Origin: Patescibacteria group bacterium
GTDB lineage: Bacteria; Patescibacteriota; Minisyncoccia; Phycocordibacterales; PALSA-1337
DNA: 52,919 bases
Direction of reading: 5' to 3'
Assembly (NCBI GenBank): GCA_038064415.1
Contig: JBBTTD010000006.1
Coordinates: 1-52,919, forward strand
Part shown: one piece after another, positions 15,168 through 24,258 of the stretch
Layout of the letters: each line of letters opens with the position of its first letter
Position numbering within the stretch: the first letter of the stretch is position 1
Translations under genes and position numbers: made by a program
Notes under the pieces: model-generated
Told to the model about the DNA's origin: nothing
Database searches by the model: none
What the model saw: the letters and a program-made list of their open reading frames with translations, nothing else

Positions 15168-15298
15168 CATATCCCCGCACTACATAATACTTCTTTGAAG
15201 CATTGCCGGAGGCCTAAACAGATATTCATCATTCTTTAGCCATTGATTTTAGACAACAGGCGTCGCTTCAAAGAAGTATTATGTAGTGCGGGGATATG
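15168..15298 (+). repeat. Palindromic element A: perfect 34-bp inverted arms around a CGGAG...CGT core
   Basis: 15168-15201 is the exact reverse complement of 15265-15298; CGGAG at 15207, CGT at 15261. Confidence 0.9.
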
Positions 15299-21258: not shown

Positions 21259-21418
21259 TAAATAAAGTGATAAAGAGTTTGGTGAATATATATTTTATAC
21301 AAATTGCGTTATGTCCCCAACAAAACCTAGACGATGGGGCAACATAATTTGTATAAAATATATATTCACCAAACTCTAAAACTTGATTTATTAAAATATT
21401 TAAGCTATTGTTTGTGTC

Positions 21419-21946: not shown

Positions 21947-22696
21947 ATGTATCACGAATATATATTTCGCCCTCTCTACAATGGCCTCGTTGGTATTATG
22001 GATATTATTCCATGGGTTGATGTTGGTGTTGCTGTCGTTATTTTTACCATTATTGTCAAACTTATCCTATTTCCCCTATCAAAAGCGTCACTGTTGACCC
22101 AAGTTCGCATGAAGGAAATTGAGCCGGAGGCAAACAAAATTAAAGCCCAATACGCGTCCAATAAACAAACACAGGCCCTGAAAATCATGGAGCTTTACAA
22201 AGAGAAGAGAATCAAACCATTTTCTGGTGTTTTACTTCTTTTTATTCAACTTCCCATCCTTTTCGCTCTTATTTCGGTGTTTTATAAAATTATTCCAACC
22301 ATTGATGTCGCCCAACTTTATAGTTTTATAGCTGTTCCCAACAACCCATCTTTTCATTTTCTTGGACTTATTGATTTGAGTCAAAAAAGTTTTATTCTCT
22401 CACTAGCGACGGCAGTAATTCAATTTTTGCAAATGCATTTTTCACCAGCCATGCGCCAACAAAAACTCGCCAGCAACCAACCCCAAACAAACCCAGCCGA
22501 CTTTGCTTCACAACTATCTGGCTCCATGACAAAACAAATGATGTACTTACTGCCCATACTTGCTTTTGCCTCAACATATTGGATTATTCCAGCAACGTTT
22601 CCTCAGGCGGCGTCAATCATAGCTATTTATTGGTCAGTTAGTACTTTATTTACATTAGTGCAAGAGCTTTATATTAGAAAGAGACACTTAAAGTAA
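21947..22696 (+). CDS. yidC: YidC/Oxa1 membrane protein insertase (short form)
   Basis: FT..VKLIL.PL, LYKE..IKPF.G.L...IQLPI, IYW..S..F...QE motifs. Confidence 0.92.
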   Translation: MYHEYIFRPLYNGLVGIMDIIPWVDVGVAVVIFTIIVKLILFPLSKASLLTQVRMKEIEPEANKIKAQYASNKQTQALKIMELYKEKRIKPFSGVLLLFIQLPILFALISVFYKIIPTIDVAQLYSFIAVPNNPSFHFLGLIDLSQKSFILSLATAVIQFLQMHFSPAMRQQKLASNQPQTNPADFASQLSGSMTKQMMYLLPILAFASTYWIIPATFPQAASIIAIYWSVSTLFTLVQELYIRKRHLK

Positions 22697-22813
22697 CAAG
22701 AAACATGTGTAGTTCGGATACGTTGCGGAGCGCGACGGCGCGAGCATAGGAATTTTTCAGCAGAAAAATATCCGTGTATCCGAACTACACATGTTTCTTG
22801 TTACTTTAAGTGT
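22684..22813 (+). repeat. Palindromic element B: perfect 38-bp inverted arms around a CGGAG/CGAG/CGT core, between convergent genes
   Basis: 22684-22721 is the exact reverse complement of 22776-22813; the left arm includes the yidC stop codon. Confidence 0.9.
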
Positions 22814-24258
22814 TAGTTGTTAGCAACCAAATCCAAAGACCACAAAGAGAGGTCATTTTTGTTCATAAATATCAGAAAATCATCTTTTTCATCAAGACCA
22901 AGGTTAAATGCGTCAATTACACGATCTGAAGTGTCTACAATTGACGAAACCAACTTAATTTCTCCTGTGGTTGCGTTGACTTGCCAGATTTTATCAACAG
23001 TTGAAAGTGTTCCTTTATACCAATCATCCGGATAAGCTCCTTTTATTGGTTGTGATGGTACGGCGCAATACACCATTTCTTTGTAGAAGTTGCCCCAAAT
23101 ACACTTATCCGCCAATGTTCTTATAATTGCGTCAGTTCCCTTTTTGTCTTTTACATTATACACACTAGCGACAACATTTTCCGCGTTTCCCGTGGCTGAA
23201 ATTAAGACATATTTTGCATCTGTACTAACTTTTGTGCCCAAACCAGGAAGTGGACCAATAATTTTCTTCCAGATGCCGGTCTTTGGATCAACAAAATACA
23301 AATAACCACTCTCACCAGAATTTCCTTTGGTGGTAACTGCAATAGTATTATCCTCTGGCCAATCAACATTGACCTGTGTTAGTGGAGTTGTGAATATTTG
23401 AGTGACTAGTTTCCCATCAAAAGTTGCAGTGTAACCAACGCCTACCCCACTCTCATTTGTGAACATAAATACCCTATCTTTTTTTGGTGAGACAGCATAA
23501 CCAACAAGGTTTTGTGGCAGATTTTTACCTTTAAGTTCAAACGGAGTAAGTGATATTGGCGTGTTTGTTGTAATTGCTCCAATTTGGACCGTACTTGAAG
23601 CGCTGACAGTACTCGTGGCAACCTTTGGAATTATTCTAGCTTTTAATTCCGCATATATTCCTTCCATAGAATTATTTTCATCAGAAAAAGCCGAAGCCAG
23701 AAATGCCGTCAGATTTTTATTCCAACTACTCTCATATATTTTAGGGACAACTGTATTTGAGATTGTTGTTATGTCTAAGTTATCTCCACGCGCCTCGTAA
23801 ACATTACCTCTTCCCCTATCAACCCACCTAATTACAGTCACACTTTTCATTTTTGGCGGAACGGACCTTGTTGGGGTCTTGGGCTTTGTGCTAGTTGCAG
23901 TTGTTGTGGCGCTCGAAAGGCCAGAACTAGTGATTGGATCAATTATAGCGACCATTGTTGTACTTGCCCCATACCCCCCAACAGGCGTGTCACTCAAAAG
24001 TCGTAGTGTTGGGATTTTTATTTGATTGTTCTGTATTGTTGAAGTTGCAACATCTCCATTGTTGTTTGTATCACTTCCAGCCCCACCCCCACTATTACTT
24101 GGTGTCCTGCCAAATGGGGTGAAGCCGCCCGGCTGGCTGTCTGTTGAGGTTTCTATGGTAGTTGACGGGGCGCGCACGAAAAAGTACCAGTAGGATAAGC
24201 TAATGATTATAAGGATAAAGATAAAGGCGGAGGTTATTTTTAAGGAACTGTTTTTCAT
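22813..24258 (-). CDS. Membrane-anchored hypothetical protein with Thr/Ser-rich linker and beta-rich extracellular domain
   Basis: N-terminal TM segment, T/S/P-rich stretch, beta-strand-like repeats; last gene of the T4SS-like operon. Confidence 0.7.
   Translation of the reverse strand: MKNSSLKITSAFIFILIIISLSYWYFFVRAPSTTIETSTDSQPGGFTPFGRTPSNSGGGAGSDTNNNGDVATSTIQNNQIKIPTLRLLSDTPVGGYGASTTMVAIIDPITSSGLSSATTTATSTKPKTPTRSVPPKMKSVTVIRWVDRGRGNVYEARGDNLDITTISNTVVPKIYESSWNKNLTAFLASAFSDENNSMEGIYAELKARIIPKVATSTVSASSTVQIGAITTNTPISLTPFELKGKNLPQNLVGYAVSPKKDRVFMFTNESGVGVGYTATFDGKLVTQIFTTPLTQVNVDWPEDNTIAVTTKGNSGESGYLYFVDPKTGIWKKIIGPLPGLGTKVSTDAKYVLISATGNAENVVASVYNVKDKKGTDAIIRTLADKCIWGNFYKEMVYCAVPSQPIKGAYPDDWYKGTLSTVDKIWQVNATTGEIKLVSSIVDTSDRVIDAFNLGLDEKDDFLIFMNKNDLSLWSLDLVANN

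What the first reader, a model, noticed from the sequence alone, without database searches (positions are those of the whole stretch)
22684..22813. Element B: a perfect 38-bp arm contains the yidC stop codon, suggesting arms are copied from host DNA
Seen: the left arm begins inside yidC (CAC TTA AAG TAA = HLK*), and its exact reverse complement ends at the stop codon of the convergent T4SS-like operon. The core is a minimal version: CGGAG-CGC-gacg-GCG-CGAG-CATAG, then an ATTTTTC/GAAAAAT hairpin, then CGT. Inference: either the right arm is a fold-back copy of host 3' sequence, or the element supplied the stop codon. It could also act as a bidirectional terminator or RNase III site between convergent transcripts.
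Basis: partly seen in the sequence, partly recalled or inferred. Interest (0 to 1): 0.62.

Follow-up and report, generated by a model that had tools for sequence, protein, structure and literature searches.

The report
Hairpin repeat that copied yidC's end
Element B is one copy of an apparently undescribed family of hairpin-shaped repeats in ultra-small groundwater bacteria; it sits exactly between two converging genes, and the outermost part of its perfect stem is an inverted copy of the last codons of the yidC gene, which hints at how such hairpins grow and stay perfect.

Summary
Bases 22684-22721 and 22776-22813 are a perfect 38-nt inverted repeat around a 54-nt core. The left arm starts 13 nt inside yidC, and the right arm ends on the first base of the convergent gene's stop codon.

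The core and the inner 25-32 nt of each arm are not host DNA. They belong to a three-way-junction-capped hairpin repeat found in more than 230 stretches of Patescibacteria DNA, with no Rfam match and no description in the papers searched.

YidC homologues without the element still end in ...HLK*. In one such relative the two stop codons abut with 0 nt between them. So yidC's end is ancestral, and the outermost 6-13 nt of the right arm must be an inverted copy of it. I attribute that copy to fold-back (template-switch) DNA synthesis. The same process would explain why the internal loop typical of this subfamily is erased in B.

The same gene junction carries at least seven unrelated hairpin elements across the genus.

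A terminator or RNase III role is untested. There is no canonical terminator signature, but an RNase III gene is present.

The parts
21947..22696 (+). yidC (249 aa, YidC/Oxa1 insertase). Its last 13 nt are inside the left arm.
   Evidence: ORF, translation, PF02096. The C-terminus HLK* is conserved in homologues.
22684..22696 (+). Host-derived outer part of the left arm (A-CAC-TTA-AAG-TAA). Certainly host for 22684-22689. Bases 22690-22696 are host under model A or element-borne under model B.
   Evidence: Relatives lacking the element end CAT TTG AAR TAA or CAC ATT AAA TAA. The similarity to G059_C13 starts at AAAGT.
22697..22721 (+). Element-derived inner left arm (CAAGAAACATGTGTAGTTCGGATAC). 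The subfamily's internal loop (TGA opposite GAAT) has been erased.
   Evidence: Alignments. The consensus is ACATGTGGG-TGA-GGATAC opposite GTATCC-GAAT-CCCACATGT. B's left arm equals the exact complement of its right arm.
22722..22775 (+). 54-nt three-way-junction core. P2a 22724-22726/22744-22746; tandem G.A internal loop; P2b 22730-22733/22738-22741 (loop GACG); P3 22749-22758/22763-22773 (loop AGCA, bulged A22770).
   Evidence: Minimum-free-energy fold (-81.8 kcal/mol, z = -15.6). Consensus structure with compensatory changes in 19 of 29 pairs over 60 family members.
22776..22800 (+). Element-derived inner right arm (GTATCCGAACTACACATGTTTCTTG).
   Evidence: It differs from the subfamily's right-arm consensus at 3 of 19 positions.
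22801..22813 (+). Inverted copy of yidC's last 13 nt (TTACTTTAAGTGT). There is no counterpart in relatives, where the two stop codons abut. T22813 doubles as the first base of the convergent gene's stop codon.
   Evidence: G094 carries a subfamily copy at the same site, also 25 nt from stop to core, but without these 12 nt.
22813..24258 (-). Convergent 481-aa gene of unknown function, first of an operon whose next gene has a T4SS_pilin domain.
   Evidence: The C-terminus ...LSLWSLDLVANN* is conserved in relatives.

Best explanation
**What it is.** Element B is a copy of a non-coding, hairpin-shaped repeat specific to Patescibacteria (CPR). The family has a conserved three-way-junction core at the tip of a long stem whose sequence differs from copy to copy.

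**How it got there.** B came to lie exactly between the abutting stop codons of the convergent yidC and T4SS-operon genes. That junction tolerates insertions and is occupied by different hairpin elements in different species.

**Which parts are which.**
- The core and the inner 25 nt (or possibly 32 nt) of each arm came with the element.
- The outermost 6-13 bp of the stem were added by fold-back (intramolecular template-switch) DNA synthesis.
- In that step the 3' end of a nascent strand, having copied the right arm, snapped back onto the nascent left arm. It copied on into the end of yidC (CACTTAAAGTAA gives TTACTTTAAGTG) and returned to its template at the T of the convergent stop codon.
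- The same kind of event had earlier made the two arms exact complements, erasing the internal loop that other subfamily copies keep.

**Consequence.** Both convergent transcripts would carry a 38-bp perfect hairpin that buries yidC's stop codon. That hairpin probably acts as an RNase III substrate or a transcription roadblock, as a side effect rather than as the reason the element is there.

**Shown:** family membership, the fold, the ancestral yidC end, the empty site and the inverted copy.
**Inferred:** the template-switch mechanism, mobility and any effect on RNA.
For: 1. The repeat is real and far beyond chance.

2. Family membership.
- The core pattern occurs 3 times in this genome.
- It occurs in 5 of 93 genomes of the genus with the strict pattern, and in 10 of 93 with the subfamily junction pattern.
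- It occurs in more than 118 metagenome stretches and more than 118 genome stretches, covering many Paceibacteria lineages and Saccharibacteria.

3. Structure.
- A three-way junction with compensatory changes in P1, P2a, P2b and one P3 pair.
- A folding-independent arm comparison shows a strand bias: G.U-type mismatches 73 against 35 (p = 3e-4), and G.A-type 101 against C.U-type 26. The bias holds whatever the direction of the host genes.

4. yidC's end is ancestral, and empty sites exist.

5. G094 carries a subfamily copy at the same junction. It also has 25 nt from stop codon to core, but it keeps the internal loop and lacks the 12-nt inverted copy of yidC.

6. Of 26 subfamily copies, only B and G059_C13 lack the internal loop. 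B's right arm is close to the right-arm consensus, while its left arm is simply the complement of the right arm.

7. Turnover at this junction. Unrelated hairpin elements sit here in L040, L285, L002, L004, L009 and L008, and a remnant sits here in G059.

8. Template switching is published as a mechanism that homogenises and expands inverted-repeat arms and creates perfect RNA hairpins (PMC8794818, PMC13100816; abstracts seen).
Against: - No intermediate or polymorphic allele was seen.
- G059_C13 lies at an unrelated locus and shares AAAGT..CAAGAAA and the same 32-nt arm length with B (12 of 14 identical in register; a match of 12 or more anywhere was seen in only 2 of 227 copies). So 7 of the 13 'host' bases may have arrived with the element.
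- ACTT.AAGT in the native yidC end is itself nearly palindromic. That lowers the surprise of the outer 4 bp.
- No mobilising enzyme was identified. Y1/RAYT transposase is absent from this 98%-complete genome.
- Mobility is inferred only from patchy distribution and differing occupancy of orthologous sites.
Confidence: 0.55

Rival explanations
1. Model B. The element arrived as a 118-nt unit (22690-22807) with 32-nt perfect arms ending AAAGT...ACTTT. It inserted after CACTT at the centre of the native mini-palindrome ACTT-G-AAGT. The element itself supplies yidC's last Lys codon and stop (A-AAG-TAA). Only 2-6 bp of the stem are host sequence or copied host sequence.
For: - G059_C13 has perfect 32-nt arms AAAGTGCCAAGAAAATCATGTGGTACGGATAC. 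It sits between the divergent ctpA and corA genes, and the orthologous site in this genome is empty.
- The match to B's AAAGTAACAAGAAA is in register.
- The G094 copy's stem also begins ..AAAAGT.
- Own yidC uses TTA for the Leu codon where the closest relatives use TTG, CTG or CTC.
- The right flank AAGTGTTAGTTG resembles a mutated native tail AAGTAATTAGTTG.
Against: - The element's first 7 nt would have to recreate, in frame, exactly the conserved Lys-stop of yidC. That is roughly a 1e-3 to 1e-4 coincidence unless insertion is guided by homology.
- AAAGT is not a conserved terminus in the other 23 subfamily copies.
- The native stop codon would have had to be lost from the right flank by a substitution plus a deletion while the other 130 nt stayed perfect.
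- Even this model needs AAGTGT to be a fold-back copy of ACACTT.
Confidence: 0.2
2. A host-beneficial RNA element. The hairpin is kept because it insulates the convergent transcripts, as a bidirectional terminator, a 3'-end stabiliser or an RNase III processing site. The stem was extended over the yidC stop codon by selection.
For: - The same junction carries a long hairpin in many genus members, although of different families.
- In this genome nearly all long hairpin elements start 0-26 nt after a stop codon.
- The element folds into a very stable hairpin on both strands.
- RNase III is encoded.
- There is a strand-specific structural signal in the family.
Against: - Relatives have 0-2 nt between the genes, or overlapping genes, and no hairpin.
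- There is no G+C-rich stem with a U-tract.
- Family copies are often antisense to both neighbours (55 against 21) or lie in frame inside ORFs (44 of 213). One example is inside lepA in G010.
- Perfect Watson-Crick arms without a single G.U pair point to DNA-level copying rather than RNA-level selection. Family-wide, about 6% of P1 pairs in predicted folds are G.U.
Confidence: 0.2
3. The core inserted into the loop of a pre-existing host hairpin. That hairpin would have been a terminator made of yidC's end and its complement, so the arms are host DNA that predates the element.
For: - Perfect palindromes with loops of 0-2 nt exist in this genome (C13:2894-2953, C12:32114-32171, C8:4149-4190).
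- Orthologous sites carry different cores in different species.
- The left flank of G059_C2 contains a fragment resembling another element's arm, which suggests nesting.
Against: - No relative shows such a hairpin at this junction without a core. The empty sites have 0-2 nt between the stops.
- The inner arms are clearly homologous to element arms elsewhere.
- A host hairpin containing yidC codons would itself need an inverted duplication of yidC's end.
Confidence: 0.05

Closest known systems
Rickettsia palindromic elements (RPE-1 to RPE-10; Ogata et al. 2000, as summarised in the MITE review PMC10969869)
   Same: - Palindromic repeats of about 100-150 bp in a reduced genome.
- Copies lie between genes and in frame inside housekeeping genes. 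Family copies here are inside lepA and tsaD.
- No known transposase, and no obvious target-site duplication.
   Different: - A different phylum and no sequence relation.
- Here the conserved part is a small three-way-junction core and the arms are copy-specific. RPE copies resemble one another along their whole length.
- There is a strand-specific structural signal.
- B itself is intergenic.
REP/BIME elements mobilised by RAYT (Y1/HUH) transposases (PMC3733652)
   Same: - Extragenic palindromes just after stop codons.
- Proposed roles in termination and mRNA stabilisation.
- A single-strand hairpin is the relevant form.
   Different: - REPs are 20-40 nt, carry a GTAG or CGTC tag, and are uniform within a genome.
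- No Y1 transposase is present in this genome.
- B is 130 nt and has a structured cap.
Bacterial MITEs such as Correia (Neisseria), ERIC and RUP (PMC10969869, PMC2229807)
   Same: - Short non-autonomous repeats with terminal inverted repeats.
- Co-transcribed with neighbouring genes. Correia hairpins are cut by RNase III (my own knowledge).
   Different: - MITEs have conserved terminal inverted repeats matching a parent IS element, and direct target-site duplications.
- Here the termini are not conserved and the flanks are inverted, not direct.
Quasipalindrome / template-switch mutations (Ripley model; PMC8794818, PMC13100816, PMC5453318)
   Same: They explain in one step both the exact complementarity of the arms and the outward growth of an inverted repeat into unique flanking sequence.
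   Different: This is a general mutational mechanism, not an element family. It has not been demonstrated in CPR bacteria, and here it is inferred from a single end state.

Membership tests
   B matches exactly. More than 230 stretches elsewhere match.
   Fold. 19 of 29 consensus pairs show compensatory changes. P3 is mostly invariant because the scan pattern fixed it.
   B has the GGATAC/GTATCC pairing, but the loop is erased. Only B and G059_C13 among 26 copies lack it.
MITE | Direct target-site duplication flanking the terminal inverted repeats | tested here: not met
   The flanks ACACTT / AAGTGT are inverted complements, not direct repeats.
MITE | Conserved termini shared with an autonomous IS element | tested here: inconclusive
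   The outer arm ends differ among 26 subfamily copies. Y1 transposase is absent. DDE transposases were not searched.
REP/BIME (RAYT-mobilised) | RAYT / Y1 transposase gene in the genome | tested here: not met
   PF01797 has no match in G000 (98% complete), G094 or G090.
REP/BIME (RAYT-mobilised) | 20-40 nt unit with a GTAG or CGTC tag at one end | tested here: not met
   B is 130 nt with a structured 54-nt cap.
Rickettsia palindromic elements | Sequence membership in RPE-1 to RPE-10 | not tested
   No RPE library was on hand. The host is a different phylum, so only the behaviour is comparable.
Rickettsia palindromic elements | In-frame copies inside protein-coding genes | tested here: met
   Met for the family (44 of 213 copies inside ORFs; lepA in G010). 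B itself is intergenic.
Rho-independent terminator | G+C-rich stem-loop followed by a U-tract | tested here: not met
   No terminator-like site in 22300-23200. The stem is A+T-rich and 38 bp long, and its tail is UAGUUGUU.
RNase III substrate | About 20 bp or more of continuous dsRNA, and an rnc gene in the genome | tested here: met
   A 38-40 bp continuous stem on either strand. PF14622 hit at C13:12237-12629. Cleavage itself cannot be tested with these tools.
Any Rfam 15 family | Covariance-model match | tested here: not met
   Nothing at the gathering threshold. Only sub-threshold chance-level hits for B (E >= 0.2) and for a typical member (best E 0.099, far below gathering score).
Template-switch (quasipalindrome) mutation product | One arm replaced by the exact complement of the other, and the repeat extended into unique flanking sequence | tested here: met
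   Left arm against the subfamily consensus. yidC codons copied in inverted form. The event itself was not observed.

The most novel reading that the evidence does not exclude
**Stem growth and capture.** These CPR hairpin elements may grow their stems by fold-back copying of whatever host DNA lies next to them. The captured host bases would then become part of the mobile unit.
- On this reading, G059_C13 is a transposed descendant of the yidC-site element that still carries yidC's Lys-stop (AAAGTAA, now AAAGTGC) into a promoter region.
- Stem accretion and carry-over would explain why the arms are copy-specific across the whole family while the core is nearly invariant from Paceibacteria to Saccharibacteria.

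**Mode of spread.** The family would propagate through a strand-specific single-stranded intermediate that is recognised by its three-way-junction cap rather than by its ends.
Probability: 0.2. Interest if true: 0.75.

Novelty: new variant of a known kind. Interest (0 to 1): 0.55.

Why it matters
CPR/Patescibacteria genomes are tiny and were thought to be poor in mobile DNA. Yet this 643-kb genome carries about 35 long, perfect hairpin elements in at least seven core families.

Element B is the cleanest natural experiment among them. The flanking genes abut in relatives, so every inserted base can be accounted for. That shows part of the stem is an inverted copy of a host gene's last codons.

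This gives a concrete, testable mechanism (template switching) for three things:
- how such stems become perfect;
- how they grow;
- how they can bury stop codons.

It also warns annotators that gene 3' ends in these genomes can be embedded in repeat-derived hairpins.

If the family's conserved cap is a protein or ribozyme recognition site, it would be a new handle on replication, repair or RNA processing in organisms that cannot yet be grown alone.

Tried and rejected
I therefore had no RNA 3' ends, no processing sites and no population reads for empty-site alleles.

2. A look-up of the exact YidC protein found only same-species contigs that all carry the identical element. There is no polymorphism to exploit.

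3. My first strand test was biased and is withdrawn.
- It counted G.U pairs against A.C mismatches in RNAfold structures (501 against 44).
- Folding the reverse complement also gave G.U well above A.C (464 against 116).
- The folding-independent test gives a real but modest 2:1 ratio.

4. Rfam gave nothing, at the gathering or the E-value threshold, for B or for a typical member.

5. Three literature searches found no description of these elements. They found only papers on the template-switch mechanism.

6. I could not test this, because the assembly lacks recognisable 23S motifs.

7. AAAGT as a conserved element terminus is rejected as a general feature. 23 of the 26 subfamily copies do not have it.

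8. A Y1 transposase as the mobiliser is rejected for this genome. One reverse transcriptase gene is present, but I found no link to the elements, and it is absent from G094 and G090.

9. Assembly artefact is rejected.

10. The idea that the outer arms of recent G059 copies come from adjacent coding ends found no support in the two sites I could compare.

Full report
**1. The observation**

- Bases 22684-22721 and 22776-22813 are a perfect 38-nt inverted repeat separated by 54 nt.
- In 30 first-order Markov simulations of the window, no inverted repeat exceeded 14 nt. The real window has five with arms of 18 nt or more.
- The yidC ORF (21947..22696; PF02096) ends CAC TTA AAG TAA inside the left arm.
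- The convergent 481-aa ORF (22813..24258, minus strand) has its stop codon at 22813-22815, so the right arm shares one base with it.
- Two independent ENA assemblies from other Hainich groundwater samples contain the identical 130 nt. Two Logan contigs stop 30 nt into the arm, the behaviour expected at a palindrome.

**2. What the element belongs to**

The window is contig C6 of a 643-kb, 15-contig, 40% G+C Patescibacteria genome.

- A genome-wide scan finds about 40 perfect inverted repeats with arms of 18-52 nt. About 35 of them enclose a core of 25 nt or more, and they fall into at least seven core families.
- Nearly all start 0-26 nt after a stop codon.
- B's core has two more copies in this genome, at C5:17495-17615 and around C7:5590-5650.
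- The strict core pattern occurs in 5 of 93 genomes of the genus. A subfamily junction pattern occurs in 10 of 93, giving 26 copies.
The latter come from many Paceibacteria lineages and from Saccharibacteria.
- After removing duplicates this gave 228 distinct copies.
- Rfam has no match, and three literature searches found no description.

**3. Anatomy**

- B folds into a 38-40 bp stem (P1) capped by a three-way junction.
  - P2 is a helix interrupted by tandem G.A, with loop GACG.
  - P3 is GGAAUUUUUC-AGCA-GAAAAAU(A)UCC.
  - The fold is -81.8 kcal/mol, z = -15.6. The reverse strand folds as well, as any perfect palindrome must.
- Over 60 family members, RNAalifold returns the same junction. 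19 of 29 pairs show compensatory double changes. These include UA to AU in P2a, several pair types in P2b, and G-C to C-G in P3.
- The rest of P3 is invariant only because my scan pattern fixed it.

**4. Which strand matters**

- My first test counted G.U pairs against A.C mismatches in predicted folds. It was biased, because folding the reverse complement also gave an excess of G.U.
- A folding-independent alignment of each left arm with the reverse complement of its right arm used 96 copies. It gives 73 G.U-type against 35 A.C-type mismatches (p = 3e-4), and 101 G.A-type against 26 C.U-type.
- The bias is present whether the neighbouring genes are sense, antisense or mixed.
- So one strand, the one written in the window's plus orientation for B, is under modest structural constraint as a single strand, either RNA or ssDNA.
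- Gene context among 213 copies:
  - 55 are antisense to both neighbours and 21 are sense to both (binomial p = 1e-4);
  - 26 lie between convergent genes;
  - 44 lie inside open reading frames.
- An example inside a gene is an in-frame insertion in lepA of G010. The orthologous stretch of this genome's lepA lacks it.
- This pattern does not fit a dedicated host terminator.

**5. Is the left arm host DNA?**

- Among the 38 closest YidC homologues, the C-terminus ...ELYIRK[KR]HL[KGN] is the rule, and four end exactly in HLK.
- At the DNA level:
  - L038/L039 (76% YidC identity) read CAT TTG AAA TAA, followed immediately by the CTA stop of the convergent gene, with 0 nt between them.
  - L007 has 2 nt between the stops, and in L010 the genes overlap.
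  - L041 has a 40-nt non-palindromic spacer.
- Hence CAC TTA AAG TAA is ancestral yidC sequence, and the site had no room for a pre-existing complement.
- The 12-13 nt TTACTTTAAGTG(T) at 22801-22813 are therefore new DNA that is the exact inverted copy of yidC's end.

**6. Are the whole arms host DNA?**

No.

- In the subfamily alignment, the inner arms are conserved as (C)ACATGTGGG-TGA-GGATAC opposite GTATCC-GAAT-CCCACATGT, with an asymmetric internal loop.
- B's inner arms are recognisably this sequence.
- Its right arm differs from the consensus at 3 of 19 positions. Its left arm is the exact complement of its right arm, so the internal loop is gone.
- Only B and G059_C13 among 26 copies show this 'perfected' state.
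- Family-wide, arms are usually imperfect. Only 8 of 217 predicted P1 stems are free of G.U pairs and unpaired bases.

**7. The same junction in other species**

- G094 (77% YidC identity) has a subfamily copy at exactly this junction. It also has 25 nt between yidC's stop and the core. It keeps the internal loop, has a longer P3, and its right arm is followed directly by the convergent stop codon.
- Relative to G094, B has one extra piece: the 12-nt inverted copy of yidC's end.
- Other relatives carry unrelated hairpin elements at the same place:
  - L040: 34-nt perfect arms, 37-nt core;
  - L285: 33-nt perfect arms, 51-nt core;
  - L002, L004, L009 and L008.
- G059 (79% identity, the closest) keeps only a 42-nt remnant resembling L040's left arm.
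- Other orthologous-site comparisons show the same turnover:
  - own_C7 and G059_C9 are orthologous between ftsE and ftsX, with compensated arm differences;
  - own_C5 and G094_C56 occupy one site with different subfamilies and unrelated arms;
  - own C2:69435 (another family) and G094_C23 share a site;
  - the sites of G090_C2 and G059_C2 are empty here.

**8. A complication**

- B's nearest relative, G059_C13, has perfect 32-nt arms AAAGTGCCAAGAAAATCATGTGGTACGGATAC.
- It lies between the divergent ctpA and corA genes, and the orthologous site in this genome is empty.
- Its outer arm matches B's AAAGTAACAAGAAA at 12 of 14 positions, in register. A match of 12 or more anywhere occurs in only 2 of 227 copies.
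- Two readings follow.
  - **Model A.** B formed at yidC by insertion between the stops plus a 12-nt fold-back copy. G059_C13 descends from that lineage and carries 7 captured yidC bases.
  - **Model B.** A 118-nt element with AAAGT...ACTTT ends inserted after CACTT and supplies A-AAG-TAA. Only AAGTGT is a fold-back copy of ACACTT.
- I favour model A for three reasons:
  - model B needs the element's end to recreate the conserved Lys-stop in frame;
  - AAAGT is not a conserved terminus in the other 23 subfamily copies;
  - the G094 comparison isolates exactly the 12 nt.
- Both models require an inverted copy of yidC codons, 6 or 12-13 nt long.

**9. Mechanism**

- Intramolecular template switching of a nascent strand at an imperfect inverted repeat is an established source of mutations that make arms exact complements and lengthen them. 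It has been shown to create and maintain perfect RNA hairpins (PMC8794818, PMC13100816, PMC5453318).
- It accounts in one framework for the erased internal loop, the perfect 38 bp, the copy of yidC's end, and the one-base overlap (T22813) where synthesis would have returned to the template.
- The event is inferred. I saw no intermediate.
- No mobilising enzyme is evident. Y1 transposase is absent here. One reverse transcriptase gene is present but has no detectable link to the elements.

**10. Function**

- No canonical terminator signature was found, and relatives do without any spacer.
- A 38-bp perfect duplex would nevertheless form in both convergent transcripts, and the genome encodes RNase III.
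- Processing or a transcription roadblock is therefore plausible as a consequence.

**11. Verdict**

- Element B is a member of an apparently undescribed, phylum-wide family of hairpin repeats that behave like Rickettsia palindromic elements but are built differently.
- Its special feature, a stem that has absorbed the end of yidC, is best explained by fold-back copying of 6-13 nt of host DNA.
- Earlier notes from this scan describe the same family independently. I used them as leads only.

Noticed in passing
window 21274-21377: A 32-37 nt near-perfect inverted repeat with a 30-40 nt centre lies in the dnaA-rpmH intergenic region. This is the presumptive oriC, and a TGTGGATA DnaA-box-like motif stands just upstream at about 21250. 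The repeat ends about 40 nt before rpmH.
   Followed up: no
genome contigs C13:2894-2953, C12:32114-32171, C8:4149-4190: Perfect palindromes of 42-60 bp with no central spacer at all. They could be empty 'clamps' left by loss of a core, or targets for insertion. Several contain the small hairpin AAGGTCNGACCTT.
   Followed up: no
genome contig C5:69609-70196 (minus strand): A single reverse transcriptase gene (PF00078, 359-aa ORF) in this 643-kb genome, with orthologues in G059 and G010. It may belong to a diversity-generating retroelement, as is common in CPR, but its type was not checked.
   Followed up: no
L026/L021 (G010), L152/L252/L254, L149/L155/L082/L097/L203: Family copies sit in frame inside lepA (G010). 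In several species they sit at one conserved position of tsaD and of another gene, each time with unrelated arms but the same core.
   Followed up: partly
L280 1450-1500 (G059, downstream of yidC): A 42-nt spacer resembles only the left arm of the palindromic element found at the same site in L040. It could be a half-deleted element, or the non-palindromic precursor from which L040's palindrome arose by fold-back copying.
   Followed up: partly
family-wide, P1 stems (e.g. L146, L153, L168, L179, L193): Many long-armed copies share an asymmetric internal loop in the stem, GTCGAG on the 5' side opposite CGAGWAAG on the 3' side. The CGAGAAAAGA motif also occurs in the junction of window elements C and D (37607, 39353).
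   Followed up: no
window 15168-15298; genome C11:10425, C10:19219, C1:5346: A four-copy family whose arms, unlike those of the other families, are conserved between copies (..CCCCGCAC.ACATAATACTTCTTTGAAGC). It occurs in both orientations.
   Followed up: no
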